In this document: positions 1 to 21,000 of the stretch, one piece after another
Layout of the letters: every line of letters begins with the position of its first letter
Position numbering within the stretch: the first letter of the stretch is position 1
Source: Zootoca vivipara
Lineage: Eukaryota
Length of the DNA stretch: 64,000 nucleotides
Assembly (NCBI RefSeq): GCF_963506605.1
Contig: NC_083288.1
Span: 28,024,001-28,088,000, forward strand
Direction of reading: 5' to 3'
Program-made: the position numbers

Positions 1-3000
1 TGGCTAGTTACCTCTCCACCTTTCCCTGATCTTGATATGACTACACAGCCTAAGGAGATCGTTGTACAATGTAATGAAGGCACAGGCTCCATGTTTTACA
101 CTATCATGGGCTACATAGGCTTTCAGGCCAGTGTCAGCTTCACAGTGGCCTTCCTAGCCAGGAAACTGCCTGACAGTTTCAATGAAGCCAAGTTTATCAC
201 CTTCAGCATGTTGGTCTTCTGCAGTGTCTGGATATCTTTCATTCCAGCCTATCTGAGTACCAAAGGCAAATACATGGTGGCTGTGGAGATCTTCTCCATC
301 CTGGCCTCGGGTGCTGGGTTGCTGGGATGTATATTTGTCCCTAAAATGTACATCATTATTTTGAAACCAGAAATGAACACTAGGGACCAATTCTTTAAGG
401 AAAAATAATTTCATTAAACCACAGAGAAGATTATTTTGCAGAGATTCCAGCAATGAGCAGCAAGTCAGCAAGACATAGCCCAGAAGTGGACTCTATATTG
501 TATGTGCTAAGTTGCATAATGTCCATGACACCCTATGTTCCTATCTGAAAATAATAAACTGTGAAAGCACCAAAATGTAATTCATTTCATTTTCAGTGCC
601 ATACTTCCTGGCTATCTTCTTAATTGGCAAAATTGACTAAATATTTGTCTCATTAAATGGATTGTATGACTGGATCCAATAGGGAAGATTTGGTGCTGTG
701 GAGGGAGATATTCAATGTTCATATACGATCTCCACCCACATCTACTATATTTTGTATTAGCCTAAAACCACAGTGCAGAGATGGAGAGAATACAGAAGGT
801 GACAATTAAATAGTTGCATCTTCCTTTGTCATCTACCTCATGAGAAAAGTGCTTGTGAAGGCAGGCCCCTTTAATTCCAGGAATAAGGACTGCTTTTGCT
901 GAAAACTGAAGCAGATATGGTGGTATTCAGAGTACACACCTTAAGTTAATAGACAAGACTAACATGTTCATTAATTTCCGTGGGTTTACTCTGAGTATAG
1001 CACCATTGATTTAATAAATTTATTTCTTAGGCTCTCTTTTCCTTTCTGAGGAAAATAAAAGGTATCTAATTAGAGCAGATTAATAACCAACATAAACAAA
1101 CATTTCAATACAGGATTGCAGGGTGAGGCTGCAATCCTAACTCCATTTAGGATTTTTGTAGTGAAAAAAGGAGGAAAGGGTAAAAGGTTTAAGGTGATAA
1201 TGAGGGTGACAAAAAGAAAAGGAAAGGAGGGAGTAAGAAACGTGGGAATTGGGTTTGAAGGTGAAATCAGAATTTGAGTGGATGTTGGCTTCATAATTGG
1301 GTGCAAGGGGAGAAGTATGCTTAGTAGTTGCAATGTGTGGTAAGAGGAAAGTGCAAGGTGTTTTCCATGGAGCTGCAAATTGCAGGCTGTAGAAAATGAG
1401 AGGGAAGAGGTGAAGCTGAAAATACAGGTGCAAAACTGAGTTGCAGAATAGAAGGGAGAAGCTGGGGCAGAGATTTCAGCAAGTAGAGTGTTTTGGTGGG
1501 GGGGGGGGGTGATGGCAAGTGAACTAAAGGAGGCAGAGTCTCCTTAGATAATGAATAATGGTCCAACAGAATCCTCAAAGATTTAATTGGAACAATCTAT
1601 TAATTGTAGCTCCCTTTTTAACTAACTAAAACAAATCACTGATTTGCCAGCAATATCATTAGCAGGAAAACTAGGCCAACTAATGAAATTCACAAAGGAG
1701 TTGGCCTCAAGAGTAGAAAAGTGGTGGTTAAAATGCCCTGTTTCCAGCATTGATTCTTCTGTTAAAGAGCAAAATTCATAGGCTAGTGAGATATTCTTTA
1801 TTGTGAATTATAGTTTCCTAAGTATCTCTAGAATAATTTGAAAAATGCAAATAATTCCATTTCCATATTTTTTCTCATTCATGTTCCCCTCCTTTTCTTC
1901 CATATCTACTGCATGGACAAAAGATATCAACGAAGAAACAATGGAAAATAGCACCTCAGTGAATGCATTTATTTTACTAGGTTTTTCTAATGTTCCAGAT
2001 TTCAAACTCCTTTTCTTTGTAGTGTTCCTGTGCATCTACCTTGTCACTGTCTTTGGCAATGTCATCATCATTGTCATCATTAGTGTTGATGCTGCCCTCC
2101 ACACTCCCATGTACTTCTTCCTCAGGAACTTGTCTTTCCTGGAGATCTGCTATACTTCAGTCACAATCCCCAAGTTGCTTGAGAACATTGTCGCTCTTGA
2201 CAAAACCATCTCTTTGCGTGCATGTGCCACTCAAATGTATTTTTTCCTCTTCTTCGGTGCCACTGAGTGCTGTCTCCTAGCCATCATGGCTTATGATCGC
2301 TACATCGCTATATGCAATCCACTGCGCTACCCGGTAATTATGAGAAAGAGAGCATGTGTTCATTTTGCTGCCTTTTCTTGGGCTTGTGGCTGTCTGGTGG
2401 CTGTGGGTCATACCACCTTCATTTTCAACCTTCCTTTCTGTGACTCCAAGGTCATCAACCATTTCTTTTGTGAAATCCAGCCAGTTCTAAAACTAGTGTG
2501 TGGGGATACATACTGGAATGAAATCCAAATCATTGTAGCTGCTGCATTTGTAATCCTGATGCCTTTCATGTTGATCCTTATGTCTTATTTCCACATCATT
2601 TCTACTATCTTGAGGATGCAATCAGCCCAGAGCCGCCAGAAGGCCTTCTCCACCTGCTCCTCACACCTTGTGGTTGTCTCCTTGTTTTATGGGACAGCCA
2701 TTTTTATATACATACGCCCCAAATCTAGCTACTCTCTGAATGTGGATAAGCTTCTCTCGCTCTTCTATTCTGTTATTACTCCCATACTGAATCCAATTAT
2801 CTACAGTCTGAGGAACAAAGAAGTGAAAGGAGCTCTCAGGAAGACAGTGTTGAAACTAATCCCATCCAACTGATATCCTAGTTTTAAAAGCAGAGAGTTG
2901 ACTATGAGACACTGTCAGCCTGTGCAAAAATTAAAGGCTCTTGATAGAGTTCATCATAGTAATACTAACTATGGAACATAAATATGTACAACAACAATAG

Positions 3001-18000: not shown

Positions 18001-21000
18001 CTATCAAGCTAAGTATTATATACAATGCCAAACAGTTTCAGAAAGGATTCTTTCCCAGCACCACCTGGAGAGATCAGGAATTGGTAAAGCAGGTGCTCTA
18101 CCATTGTGCAATGGCTTCTCTTTTTAAAAACAAAACAAAAAACTTTATTGAGATTTTAATTAAAACATATCAAATCATAACAAAACAAATTGAAACAAAT
18201 CAACTCAAAATATAAAAATTCATACAGATATCATACTTCCAAATTTACATCTGAAAAGTAATTGATATCTAATACATAATTTGACTAAACCTTCCTGTCT
18301 AGTCTTTTCCTCTATGACATCCAAATAAAAAACACTTAATATTTCTCCTAAACAGATAAATTTTCCTCCTTTTCCATGTACTTCCTCTTGCCTTGATCTT
18401 GGTCTCTTTAAGCTTTTGATTGATTACTGCTTCCCTCACCCAATGTTTCACCTGTGTTTCCTTTTGTTTTATAATCTTTACCTGCAGTACTGGTCTCTAG
18501 AAATGAATCCAGGATTTTAATGTGGGACATTGTTGCTTCATATAATTTCCGAATCCCCCCCCCCAATTTTGTTCAAAATTCTGTTTACTGCCGCCTCTAA
18601 TCGAATTGGTTAATTTTGCTAAATCTACATATCCAAATCATTTTTCCTGCCACTCATCAATTTTTGGTATATCTTGTCTTTTCCAATACGTGGCTATTAA
18701 TATTCTTGCGGCTGCAGTTGCGTATAAGAATATTTTTTGATCCTGGTTTTTTTTTATCCTGTGCAATGGCTTCTCATAGAAATGCCACATCCAGAAATGT
18801 TGTTTTCAGCTGTAAAAAAAAGAAATCTTTAACTGTTTTAGCCACACAAAAACCCAAATAAACCCTATGAAATTTTGCACTTTGCAAAATTCTGCTGGAA
18901 CATTTTGTCTATAAATTGGTTCTATAATTCTATGATTGCAGCATCTGTTCTAACTTTTTATTATTTCCATTTTCAAATTCATATTTTCAATACAAAATAA
19001 AAAAAATTCCTTCAGTAGCACCTTAATGACCAACTAAGTTTATATTTTGGTATGAGCTTTCGTGTGCAAGCACACTTCTTCAGATATTTTCAATAGTTTA
19101 TCAATACCCACCCACACCCTTTCTGTGTTTGTGAACAAGCTTGCACATTAATGAAAGAAGAGGATAGGGACAAAGCCAAGAGTGTCTTGCATAGTTTGGT
19201 GATAGTTTGGGATTAAAAAAAATAGTTTGGGATTTTAAAAAACAAGAAGACAAGACATTGTAATACTGTTTGTTTGTTTGTTTGTTGTTTGTAGATGCAA
19301 GAATACTGGTTTGTGGAACCTCTGAACCATACCATAGTGACAACGTTCATTATTCTGGGCTTCCCTAATACTAGGAAGGTGGAAATTGTGCTCTTTTTTC
19401 TCTTCCTTGCTATGTACCTTCTTACAATGACTGGCAACATAATCATAATCATAACAGTTAAGACAGACAGCCACCTTCAAACCCCCATGTACTTCTTTCT
19501 GGGAAACCTCTCTTTCTTGGACATTGGCTATACATCTTCAACAGTCCCTAAGCTGCTGTCTATCTTGTTGATGGGGGTGCACACAATTTCCTTTGCTGCC
19601 TGTTTGCTACAGTCCTACTTCTTCTTTTTTCTTGGGACAGCTGAGTGCTTCCTCCTTGCAGTGATGGCCTATGACCGATATGTGGCCATATGCTATCCGC
19701 TCAGATATTCAACAATCATGAATAAAAGAGTGTGTGTGTTTCTCGTGGTTGCCTGCTGGGCAGGAGGCTGTCTGGCCCCTATGGTAGCTGCCATAGTGGT
19801 GGTGAATTTACCCTTTTGTGGGCCCAACGTGATAAACCATTTCTTTTGTGATATTCCACCATTACTAAAACTGGCTTGCGTAGACACATCTCTTACACAG
19901 AAGATTGTATTCTTCCTTTCTGCTGTGGTGATTCTGAGCACGTTCCTGTCCACTGTTGTCTCCTATATATACATTAGCATAACCATATTGAGAATACCTT
20001 CCTCACATGGGCGCCGCAAGGCTTTCTCCACTTGTGCCTCCCATCTTACTGTCGTCTCTCTATATTATGGGACGGTGATCTTCATGTATGTAAGCCCAAC
20101 TACTCGTTCATCTTTTGACCTGAACAAAATCATAGCTGTGGTGTACAGTGTCGTTACTCCAATGCTCAACCCTATGATCTACACGTTGAGGAATAAGGAT
20201 ATGAAAGCAGCACTGAAAAAAATAATCCTCAAAGTGCAGATTGCTAAGAAGAAGCTTGATTTCTCCAGTGAATTCAGTCGCTGAGAAAATTATGTCTGCA
20301 ATGGTGAAAATGGAACATCATAGGCACCAGACGGGTGGATTTGCATCCAGGGATGGGCATATAAGTCTATTTCCGCTCTATGTAACTTTAGCATGTGTGT
20401 GATCCAACTCATCTCATTGCCACATCAGTCTACAGCTTCTTTTTAATTTAAATAGAAATATCCAATAAAATACGTTTGCATTCAGATTTTTCTCAACAAA
20501 ATAATTTTTTTAAAACATGCATGTTATTTGTTGTTTGAGCAGAGAACAGTGTCAAAATATATGGGAAGTATGAACACTGGTAATCATCATATTCAATCTG
20601 AAGTGAACAGGACAGAGTGAACTAAAAAGTAGCTCCCAAGTATTAAGAATCATTGACTTCTTCTCCAACATGCCCATAACAAAAGAATTAATAGTGGAAT
20701 ATGCAATTATCAATTTCCTTGGCCAATTTTTCTTCTTCCCTATCATTATCTGATGCAATAATTAAAGGGGGTCTACAAGTAACTTGGGACGTGGTTGGCG
20801 CTGTGGGTTAAACCACAGAGCCTAGGGCTTGCTGATCAGAAGGTCAGCGGTTCGAATACCTGTGACGGGGTGAGCTCCTGTTGCTCGGTCCAAGCTCCTG
20901 CCCACCTAGCAGTTCAAAAGCACACCAAAGTGTAAGTAGATAAATAGGTACCGCTACAGCGGGAAGGCATTTCCGTGTGCTGCTCTGGTTCACCAGAAGC

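What the first reader, a model, noticed from the sequence alone, without database searches (positions are those of the whole stretch)
1..20284. Olfactory and vomeronasal receptor genes interleaved: V2R - OR - V2R - OR on one strand
Seen: an intact OR lies about 1.5 kb after the V2R-A stop and 1.4 kb before the V2R-B ATG, and further ORs follow V2R-B. Known: ORs (class A GPCR, main olfactory epithelium) and V2Rs (class C GPCR, vomeronasal organ) usually form separate arrays under separate gene-choice control. Inference: at this spacing the OR promoter must lie in or near the V2R-A 3' region, and the V2R-B promoter abuts the OR 3'UTR. Shared enhancers, read-through transcription or vomeronasal expression of the OR are therefore plausible, giving a hybrid chemosensory locus.
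Basis: partly seen in the sequence, partly recalled or inferred. Interest (0 to 1): 0.75.

Follow-up and report, generated by a model that had tools for sequence, protein, structure and literature searches.

The report
Lizard V2R genes flanking conserved OR
At the edge of a lizard smell-receptor gene cluster, two pheromone-type receptor genes sit on either side of a very old, highly conserved odorant receptor gene, a real but not unprecedented arrangement whose effect on gene regulation is untested.

Summary
On the + strand lie the last 135 codons of a V2R (V2R-A, 1-408), an intact odorant receptor (OR1, 1941-2873), an intact six-exon V2R of 873 codons (V2R-B, 4303-14155) and a second intact OR (OR2, 19295-20284). 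The spacers are 1532, 1429 and 5139 nt. Five more intact ORs and three broken ones fill the rest of the window, so this is the left edge of an OR cluster.

A public Zootoca vivipara protein model is 100% identical to V2R-B exons, so the window is from that lacertid.

- **OR1** is an "OR10C1-like" gene with unusually deep conservation: 98% identity in Podarcis, 80-90% in other lizards and geckos, 63-64% in mammals.
- **V2R-A and V2R-B** are lacertid-specific duplicates (dS 0.35, dN/dS 0.13) of a V2R lineage found across squamates. Their shared ancestry ends about 740 nt after the stop codon, so OR1 was not part of the duplicated unit.

Most likely these are separate transcription units packed tightly together. 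Two ORs in the same window show the same 1.43-kb spacing. Mixed OR/vomeronasal receptor clusters are already described in mouse and rat. Shared regulation is possible but cannot be tested with these tools. This is a new member of a known kind, of modest interest.

The parts
1..408 (+). V2R-A: 3' end of the last (7TM) exon, 135 codons plus stop TAA at 406-408. The rest of the gene lies left of the window.
   Evidence: Pfam 7tm_3 E=4.3e-42. 97% identical to P. muralis P0004. 90.6% nt identity to V2R-B exon 6. dN/dS 0.13 against V2R-B. The stop falls 3 codons earlier than in V2R-B and P0004.
406..1149 (+). 3' flank of V2R-A that shares ancestry with the 3' flank of V2R-B (14439-15150). It probably holds the V2R-A 3'UTR. 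An ATTAAA at 805 is shared with 14827.
   Evidence: blastn 70.8% over 790 columns. Alignment A1. PAS list.
1150..1940 (+). Unique spacer upstream of OR1. It holds the densest group of homeodomain-type TAAT cores in the window (1549-1686) and a pyrimidine-rich tract with AG shortly before the ATG. This is the candidate site of OR1's own promoter and leader.
   Evidence: No similarity elsewhere in the window. 5 sites per 400 nt against a mean of 0.87. Sequence read.
1941..2873 (+). OR1: intact single-exon odorant receptor of 310 aa, 'OR10C1-like', deeply conserved.
   Evidence: Pfam 7tm_4 E=1.1e-54. 98% P. raffonei, 90% Elgaria, 87% Hemicordylus, 80-86% geckos, 74-75% turtles, 63-64% mammalian OR10C1.
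2874..4302 (+). Unique 1429-nt spacer between the OR1 stop and the V2R-B ATG. Its one canonical poly(A) hexamer is ATTAAA at 2930; there is no AATAAA.
4303..4511 (+). V2R-B exon 1 (209 nt): ATG, hydrophobic leader, donor GTAAGT.
   Evidence: tblastn of P0002. Junction read.
5540..5831 (+). V2R-B exon 2 (292 nt), start of the ligand-binding domain.
   Evidence: Pfam ANF_receptor E=2.4e-10. 85% to P0002. AG/GT read.
7736..8593 (+). V2R-B exon 3 (858 nt), main part of the ligand-binding domain.
   Evidence: Pfam ANF_receptor E=1.5e-25. 91% to P0002. Junctions read.
9521..9748 (+). V2R-B exon 4 (228 nt).
   Evidence: 88% to P0002. Junctions read. No Pfam match on its own.
11486..11612 (+). V2R-B exon 5 (127 nt), cysteine-rich linker.
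   Evidence: Pfam NCD3G E=1.7e-14. 91% to P0002.
13248..14155 (+). V2R-B exon 6 (908 nt including stop TAG), seven-transmembrane domain.
   Evidence: Pfam 7tm_3 E=2.7e-86. 98.7% to P0002 and 100% to the public Zootoca model P0003.
14156..14440 (+). GC-rich (53%), internally palindromic insertion directly after the V2R-B stop, bounded by a roughly 12-nt direct repeat. It is absent from the V2R-A flank.
   Evidence: Alignment A1. Self-match on the opposite strand and GC content.
14439..15150 (+). V2R-B 3' flank that shares ancestry with 406-1149.
19295..20284 (+). OR2: intact odorant receptor of 329 aa. A T-rich tract plus TAG acceptor lies immediately before the ATG.
   Evidence: Pfam 7tm_4 E=6.6e-56. 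Upstream sequence read. 52% aa identity to OR1.
23169..62425 (.). Rest of the OR cluster. Intact: OR3 24158-23169 (-), OR5 30502-29585 (-), OR6 36798-37730 (+), OR7 45412-46395 (+), OR9 57416-58402 (+). Disrupted: 27491-27972 (-), 47816-48776 (+, frameshift near 48490), 61574-62425 (+).
   Evidence: Pfam. tblastn map. Start codons.

Best explanation
This is the left edge of an old OR gene cluster of mixed subfamilies in the lacertid lizard Zootoca vivipara. Two paralogous V2R genes sit on either side of an ancient OR10C1-like gene.

Shown here:
- OR1, V2R-B and OR2 are intact, and all four genes are on the same strand.
- OR1 has been kept almost unchanged across squamates and is recognisable as OR10C1 in mammals.
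- V2R-A and V2R-B belong to one V2R lineage present in geckos, iguanians, cordylids and lacertids. They duplicated in the lacertid line before Zootoca and Podarcis split.
- Both tails have evolved under purifying selection.
- The duplicated segment ends about 740 nt after the stop codon and does not include OR1.

Inferred: a V2R copy with its 3' flank was placed next to a resident OR by segmental duplication, in a region that was already compact. Each gene remains its own transcription unit. V2R-A probably ends at one of the poly(A) hexamers in 409-1149. OR1 probably starts from a promoter in the unique 790-nt spacer, where the TAAT-core group at 1549-1686 lies. V2R-B probably starts in the unique 1.43-kb spacer after OR1. 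Which sensory neuron type uses each gene would then be set by promoter-proximal sequences and cell-type factors, not by the neighbour. That is how mixed OR/vomeronasal clusters in rodents are generally thought to behave.
For: - Gene identities and intactness: Pfam per exon. Six-exon model with 5 of 5 GT..AG introns and exon lengths 209+292+858+228+127+908 = 2622 nt, i.e. 873 codons plus stop, equal to the 873-aa P. muralis orthologue P0002 that covers every exon at 82-99%.
- Species: P0003 (Zootoca vivipara) is 100% identical over exons 3 (part) and 6.
- OR1 conservation.
- V2R lineage: quick ML tree of 61 rows on exon-3 columns. Window+P0002 SH-aLRT 100, +P0004 98, and a 10-row squamate clade at 96.
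- Selection: 121 of 135 aa identical, dS 0.35, dN 0.045, dN/dS 0.13.
- Limits of the duplication: 1-416 matches 13739-14154 at 90.6% and 406-1149 matches 14439-15150 at 70.8%, with nothing beyond.
- No OR relic in 14156-19294 or in the V2R-B introns.
- OR1 against OR2 is only 52% aa.
- Flank identity equals the neutral expectation from dS.
- The same 1.43-kb spacing occurs between OR7 and the next OR.
- TAAT-core group upstream of OR1.
- Precedent for mixed clusters: PMC6744719 (passages).
Against: - No expression, chromatin or transcript-end data exist here, so the independence of the units is an inference.
- Only one canonical poly(A) hexamer (ATTAAA 2930) lies between the OR1 stop and the V2R-B ATG, so read-through is not excluded.
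- No O/E-like site was found anywhere (0 matches, 2.8 expected). The TAAT-core group ties with two places inside a LINE for the window's maximum, so the promoter call is weak.
- No Zootoca protein matching the V2R-A tail at 100% appeared among the best 120. V2R-A may be unannotated or broken upstream of the window.
- Conserved gene order in other species could be checked only at the level of equal contig lengths.
Confidence: 0.6

Rival explanations
1. This is a hybrid, co-regulated chemosensory module. The OR10C1-like gene and the flanking V2Rs share enhancers or chromatin state, or are joined by read-through. As a result OR1 is expressed in vomeronasal neurons, or these V2Rs are chosen in the main olfactory epithelium with the OR cluster.
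For: - The spacers are 1429-1532 nt and all genes share a strand.
- Only one canonical poly(A) hexamer lies between OR1 and V2R-B.
- Both OR1 and the V2R lineage are old in squamates. In 3 of 3 species where both carry a contig length (Hemicordylus, Eublepharis, P. raffonei), the OR1 orthologue and a member of the V2R clade lie on contigs of identical length.
- In mouse, ORs are expressed in the vomeronasal organ, one OR is co-expressed with V1Rs and V2Rs, and 47.7% of co-expressed receptor pairs share a chromosome (PMC11630819, passages).
- The H enhancer drives vomeronasal reporter expression (PMC6744719).
Against: - There are no expression data.
- The same tight spacing occurs between two ORs in the window.
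- The shared V2R 3' flank evolves at the neutral rate.
Confidence: 0.17
2. The alternation is weaker than it looks. The window sits at the border between a V2R-rich region on the left and an OR array on the right. V2R-A may be a pseudogene or a lone exon, which would leave a single functional V2R lodged between ORs.
For: - Only 135 codons of V2R-A are visible.
- Its stop lies 3 codons early.
- No 100% Zootoca protein was found for it among the best 120 hits.
Against: - The V2R-A tail is 97% identical to its Podarcis orthologue P0004, similar to V2R-B exon 6 at 98.7% to P0002.
- dN/dS between the tails is 0.13, which argues for long-term constraint on both copies.
Confidence: 0.15
3. Assembly artefact: the V2R and OR pieces were joined wrongly.
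For: - V2R-A and V2R-B share a 90.6% identical last exon, the kind of repeat that can mislead an assembler.
- A gap exists at 31563-31709.
Against: - There is no N in 1-20284.
- The six V2R-B exons lie in order and orientation over 9.85 kb.
- The spacers 1150-1940 and 2874-4302 contain no repeat shared elsewhere in the window.
- The homology between the two V2R flanks decays gradually, as expected of an old duplication, rather than breaking sharply.
Confidence: 0.04

Closest known systems
OR/vomeronasal-receptor mixed clusters of mouse and rat (the 'olfactome' map of PMC6744719; passages read)
   Same: Odorant and vomeronasal receptor genes lie in one genomic cluster. Examples are the mouse H locus, where two OR groups are joined by a bridge of vomeronasal receptor genes, and rat two-gene OR/V1R miniclusters. 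The idea of a joint functional unit is already raised there.
   Different: Those clusters were defined with a 1-Mb cutoff, and the named rat pairs involve V1Rs. Here the alternation is gene by gene, with spacers of 1.4-5.1 kb, involves V2Rs, and occurs in a squamate. Exact rodent spacings were not seen.
Mammalian OR10C1 and its neighbours
   Same: OR1's best named hits are OR10C1 or OR10C1-like from lizards to mammals (63-64% identity to rodent, primate and marsupial OR10C1). Other ORs in the window hit proteins named 11A1-like and 5V1-like.
   Different: It is recalled, not tested here, that mammalian OR10C1 lies in the MHC-linked OR cluster together with 11A1, 12D and 5V1 genes. No V2R is recalled inside that mammalian cluster. 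Orthology of the whole cluster was not tested.
Squamate V2R tandem arrays (corn snake, sea snakes, rattlesnake: PMC3590772, PMC8557462, PMC12400810)
   Same: V2R-A and V2R-B are tetrapod-type V2Rs with the usual six-exon, three-domain build. They arose by local duplication, as in those arrays.
   Different: The published arrays are described as runs of V2Rs, with unnamed 'non-V2R genes' in between (PMC8557462). None of the passages read states that ORs alternate with V2Rs. V2R-A/B belong to a small clade (10 of the 61 rows), not to the large lacertid expansions.
Odorant receptors expressed in the mouse vomeronasal organ (PMC11630819, passages; PMC4753656, seen only as a search listing)
   Different: This is expression evidence from mouse that is not tied to adjacency with a V2R. 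There are no data for lizards.

Membership tests
Type-2 vomeronasal receptor (tetrapod-type V2R, class C GPCR): V2R-B | Extracellular ligand-binding (ANF_receptor / Venus flytrap) domain | tested here: met
   Exon 2 E=2.4e-10 and exon 3 E=1.5e-25.
Type-2 vomeronasal receptor (tetrapod-type V2R, class C GPCR): V2R-B | Nine-cysteine linker (NCD3G) | tested here: met
   Exon 5 E=1.7e-14.
Type-2 vomeronasal receptor (tetrapod-type V2R, class C GPCR): V2R-A and V2R-B | Class C seven-transmembrane domain (7tm_3) | tested here: met
   V2R-B exon 6 E=2.7e-86. V2R-A tail E=4.3e-42.
Type-2 vomeronasal receptor (tetrapod-type V2R, class C GPCR): V2R-B | Open six-exon coding structure with canonical splice sites | tested here: met
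   5 of 5 introns are GT..AG. Exon lengths sum to 2622 nt, and every exon lies in a stop-free frame. The exons were not joined.
Type-2 vomeronasal receptor (tetrapod-type V2R, class C GPCR): V2R-B | Groups with V2Rs rather than with calcium-sensing or taste receptors | tested here: inconclusive
   It sits inside clades of proteins that sources name V2R, including marsupial ones, with a fish CaSR-like protein as outgroup. T1R and GPRC6A were not in the tree, and the names are automatic annotations.
Type-2 vomeronasal receptor (tetrapod-type V2R, class C GPCR) | Expression in vomeronasal sensory neurons | not testable with these tools
   No expression data are available.
Odorant receptor (class A, 7tm_4): OR1 and OR2 | 7tm_4 profile match over the full length in an uninterrupted single-exon ORF of about 310-330 aa | tested here: met
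   OR1 E=1.1e-54 with profile positions 2-278 of 280. OR2 E=6.6e-56 with positions 1-278 of 280. ORFs.
Odorant receptor (class A, 7tm_4): OR1 and OR2 | Hallmark motifs (PMYFFL, MAYDRY, KAFSTC, NP..Y). The motif list is recalled, not taken from a call. | tested here: met
   All are visible in the translations.
Odorant receptor (class A, 7tm_4) | Expression in olfactory sensory neurons, one receptor per cell | not testable with these tools
   No expression data are available.
Mixed OR/vomeronasal-receptor cluster (as defined in PMC6744719) | OR and vomeronasal receptor genes closer together than the clustering cutoff (1 Mb) | tested here: met
   The spacers are 1532, 1429 and 5139 nt.
   Only indirect sequence cues exist: one poly(A) hexamer in 2874-4302, no O/E-like site, and a TAAT-core group at 1549-1686.

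The most novel reading that the evidence does not exclude
The OR10C1-like gene and this small V2R lineage have been immediate neighbours since early squamates. They form a cross-family module that escapes the usual division of labour. Either the deeply conserved OR is used by vomeronasal neurons together with these V2Rs, or these V2Rs are chosen in the nose under the control of the OR cluster. The extreme conservation of OR1 would then reflect a fixed, shared signalling task.
Probability: 0.1. Interest if true: 0.7.

Novelty: new member of a known kind. Interest (0 to 1): 0.33.

Why it matters
How sensory neurons pick one receptor gene, and how the nose and the vomeronasal organ keep their receptor families apart, is known almost only from mouse. 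A lizard locus where a V2R, an OR, a V2R and an OR follow each other within 20 kb is a compact natural test of that separation.

If silencing or choice acts on whole clusters, the embedded genes should be affected together. If it acts on each promoter, they should not. The locus is small enough for reporter constructs. The strong conservation of OR1 also marks it as an OR worth matching to a ligand.

As it stands, the finding is a gene-order fact that is already visible in public annotation, and a similar kind of arrangement is known in rodents.

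Tried and rejected
- **Tandem duplication of a V2R+OR unit:** rejected. Homology between the two V2R regions stops about 740 nt after the stop codon. OR1 and OR2 are only 52% identical. No OR relic lies in 14156-19294 or in the V2R-B introns.
- **O/E-like site (recalled consensus YCCCNNGGGR):** 0 matches in the window against 2.8 expected. Relaxed forms gave 0 in all 8 upstream regions. Not informative.
- **De novo 8-mers shared by OR upstream regions:** of the 10 found in at least 5 of 7 regions, 9 are low-complexity A/T-rich words; the tenth (in 5 of 7 regions) also occurs in 27% of background windows.
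- **Rfam at gathering threshold:** no match in the window.
- **Search for a public Zootoca protein for V2R-A:** none at 100% among the best 120 of 7970 hits.
- **Fused gene models carrying both OR and V2R domains in other species,** which would betray adjacency: none among the rows listed.
- **Literature:** nine searches and the passages read found no statement of kb-scale V2R/OR alternation in a squamate. Supplementary tables with gene coordinates (for example those of PMC10869828, PMC8557462, PMC12400810) are closed and may hold such data.
- **No public eukaryotic genome collection was available,** so squamate synteny and read-level support for the assembly could not be examined.

Full report
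**What is there**

The window has no lower-case masking and one N run at 31563-31709, which I left alone. Reading all six frames under the standard code and scanning the open frames against Pfam gives a clear map.

- Bases 1-408 are the open 3' end of a class C receptor exon (7tm_3, E=4.3e-42), ending in TAA at 406-408.
- 1845-2873 is an odorant receptor ORF (7tm_4, E=1.1e-54).
- 4303-14155 holds exons with ANF_receptor and 7tm_3 matches.
- 19295-20284 is a second odorant receptor (7tm_4, E=6.6e-56).
- To the right lie five more intact ORs and three disrupted ones. The intact ones are 24158-23169 minus, 30502-29585 minus, 36798-37730, 45412-46395 and 57416-58402. The disrupted ones are 27491-27972 minus, 47816-48776 with a frameshift near 48490, and 61574-62425.

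The finding therefore sits at the left edge of an OR cluster. Nine of the 12 receptor loci are on the + strand.

**V2R-B gene model**

[quoted passage not shown] It also found a Zootoca vivipara model of 709 aa (P0003) that is 100% identical over the part it covers. The window therefore comes from the common lizard.

A tblastn of P0002 against the window covers the protein from residue 12 to 873 in six pieces at 82-99% identity; residues 1-11, the start of the exon-1 leader, fell outside the aligned pieces. Reading the junctions gives these exons:

| Exon | Coordinates | Length (nt) |
|---|---|---|
| 1 | 4303-4511 | 209 |
| 2 | 5540-5831 | 292 |
| 3 | 7736-8593 | 858 |
| 4 | 9521-9748 | 228 |
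| 5 | 11486-11612 | 127 |
| 6 | 13248-14155 | 908 |

All five introns have GT..AG. The lengths sum to 2622 nt, that is 873 codons plus a stop. The two split codons (exons 1/2 and 5/6) agree with the residues of P0002. Exon 5 alone matches NCD3G (E=1.7e-14). V2R-B is thus an intact V2R of standard build. The public 709-aa model lacks exon 1 and skips 8342-8593 and 9521-9556, although the frame is open there.

**OR1**

Taking ATG 1941 as the start gives 310 aa. The protein search returned a 310-aa Podarcis raffonei protein at 98% identity over 100% of the length. Further identities were:

| Group | Identity to OR1 |
|---|---|
| Elgaria | 90% |
| Hemicordylus | 87% |
| Euleptes (a gecko) | 86% |
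| Pogona | 85% |
| Sceloporus and other geckos | 79-82% |
| Turtles | 74-75% |
| Birds and alligator | 70-72% |
| Mammalian OR10C1 | 63-64% |

Sources name nearly all of these "OR10C1" or "OR10C1-like". For comparison, V2R-B exon 3 is only 46-51% identical to its nearest relatives in Hemicordylus, Pogona, Anolis and Eublepharis. OR1 is therefore an old and strongly constrained OR.

The ORs of the window are 44-61% identical to each other, except OR7 and OR9 at 83%. This is an old cluster of mixed subfamilies, not a recent burst.

**The two V2Rs**

- The V2R-A tail is 97% identical to another P. muralis V2R, P0004, and 90% to V2R-B.
- A quick maximum-likelihood tree of 61 rows on the exon-3 columns (SH-aLRT support only) places the window's exon 3 with P0002 (100), then with P0004 (98).
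- These sit inside a 10-row clade (96) that also holds single proteins from Hemicordylus, Eublepharis, Anolis, Pogona and Phrynocephalus, plus a third Podarcis paralogue.
- That tree left out two of the 62 hits: P0001, a fused 1663-aa model, and P0003, the window's own public model.
- So this V2R lineage is squamate-wide, and the A/B duplication is lacertid-specific and older than the Zootoca-Podarcis split.
- Over the 135 shared codons, 121 residues are identical, with dS 0.35, dN 0.045 and dN/dS 0.13, which indicates purifying selection.

**How the arrangement arose**

A blastn of 1-4300 against the whole window shows 1-416 matching 13739-14154 at 90.6% and 406-1149 matching 14439-15150 at 70.8%. 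Nothing beyond that matches, apart from OR-to-OR similarity at 63-69%. The alignment confirms this. The flank identity of 71-74% is what dS 0.35 predicts for neutral sites (about 72%). The flank similarity therefore reflects common descent, not constraint.

No OR relic lies between V2R-B and OR2 or in the V2R-B introns. The duplicated unit was a V2R with about 740 nt of 3' flank, and OR1 was not part of it. Which copy is the parent, and where the 5' limit lies, cannot be seen, because V2R-A runs off the window.

**Regulatory cues**

- *After the V2R-A stop:* there are six canonical poly(A) hexamers in 409-1149. One of them, ATTAAA at 805, is shared with the V2R-B flank at 14827.
- *Between the OR1 stop and the V2R-B ATG:* there is one canonical hexamer, ATTAAA at 2930, and no AATAAA.
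- *Before OR2:* a T-rich tract and TAG lie directly in front of its ATG.
- *Before OR1:* a pyrimidine-rich tract and an AG lie shortly before its ATG, as expected for ORs with a non-coding leader exon.
- *Repeats:* the spacers 1150-1940 and 2874-4302 have no repeat shared with the rest of the window.
- *O/E-like motif:* a strict motif, recalled from memory, is absent from the whole window (0 found, 2.8 expected).
- *Homeodomain-type TAAT cores:* these reach the window's maximum density, 5 in 400 nt against a mean of 0.87, at 1549-1686. That is 255-390 nt upstream of the OR1 ATG. The only other places with 5 are inside a LINE.

The TAAT-core result is a weak lead that OR1 has its own promoter in the unique spacer, not in the V2R-derived flank.

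The 1.43-kb spacing is also found between OR7 and the following frameshifted OR. Compactness is therefore a property of this cluster.

**Other species**

The only proxy is the contig-length column. In Hemicordylus (171665751), Eublepharis (81085323) and P. raffonei (56248303), the OR1 orthologue and a member of the 10-row V2R clade lie on contigs of the same length. That is 3 of 3 species with both values. This shows at most the same chromosome, and those chromosomes hold many V2Rs and ORs.

**What is known**

- *PMC6744719 (passages read)* maps mouse, rat and human receptor loci. It lists OR/vomeronasal mixed clusters, among them the mouse H locus with a "bridge" of vomeronasal receptor genes between two OR groups, and rat OR/V1R pairs. 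It also proposes joint functional units.
- *PMC11630819 (passages)* reports canonical olfactory neurons in the mouse vomeronasal organ and an OR co-expressed with V1Rs and V2Rs.
- *PMC9018814 (passages)* states that tetrapod-type V2Rs are scattered over several chromosomes.
- *Squamate papers:* PMC3590772 (passages), PMC12400810 (Results read), PMC8557462 (passages), PMC8829814 (passages), PMC3342882 (passages) and PMC12860763 (passages). In what I read, none says that ORs alternate with V2Rs.
- *Searches:* nine searches found no such statement. Supplementary coordinate tables are closed.

**Verdict**

The most likely reading (about 0.6) is a compact mixed cluster of independent genes, created when a V2R duplicate landed beside an ancient OR. 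I file it as a new member of a known kind, with modest interest. The boldest reading that the evidence leaves open is an old cross-family module shared between nose and vomeronasal organ, at about 0.1.

Noticed in passing
window 1941-2873: OR1 is exceptionally conserved for an odorant receptor: 98% identity to Podarcis, 80-90% across lizards and geckos, about 72% to birds and 63-64% to mammalian OR10C1. That suggests a fixed ligand or a role beyond ordinary odour coding.
   Followed up: partly
window 397-408 compared with 14135-14155: V2R-A ends three codons earlier than V2R-B and than its Podarcis orthologue P0004. A TAA stands where the others have a glutamate codon.
   Followed up: yes
window 14156-14440: A GC-rich (53%), internally palindromic insertion of about 290 nt lies directly behind the V2R-B stop codon. 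It is flanked by a roughly 12-nt direct repeat and is absent from the V2R-A flank, so it looks like a small non-autonomous transposon.
   Followed up: partly
window 4303-4511, 8342-8593, 9521-9556: The public Zootoca protein model for V2R-B (P0003, 709 aa) lacks exon 1 and skips the end of exon 3 and the start of exon 4. The frames are open there and the Podarcis orthologue covers them, so an 873-codon model fits better.
   Followed up: yes
window 46395-47825: OR7 and the next OR, a frameshifted copy, are about 1.43 kb apart on the same strand. This is the same spacing as OR1 to V2R-B.
   Followed up: yes
window 27491-27972 (-), 47816-48776 (+), 61574-62425 (+): These are three disrupted OR copies: a C-terminal fragment, a copy with a frameshift near 48490, and a copy that lacks its N-terminus and stops in the fifth helix.
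   Followed up: partly
window 51207-55076 (+), 42404-42832 (-), 6676-6947 (-), 28704-29099 (-), 40550-40945 (+): These are retrotransposon remains. One is a degenerate LINE with endonuclease and reverse-transcriptase matches. Others are shorter reverse-transcriptase or LINE-tail fragments, one of them inside V2R-B intron 2. Their peptide tails look like BovB and CR1 elements, which is a recalled resemblance and was not tested.
   Followed up: partly
window 19295-62425: Best-hit names of the other ORs (10A7-, 11A1- and 5V1-like) recall the gene content of the mammalian MHC-linked OR cluster that holds OR10C1. This is a recalled resemblance, and orthology of the cluster was not tested.
   Followed up: no
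window 31563-31709: An assembly gap or masked stretch of 147 N lies between OR5 and OR6. I left it untouched.
   Followed up: no
window 1549-1686: Five homeodomain-type TAAT cores lie within 133 nt, 255-390 nt upstream of the OR1 start. This is the densest such group in the window outside a LINE.
   Followed up: partly
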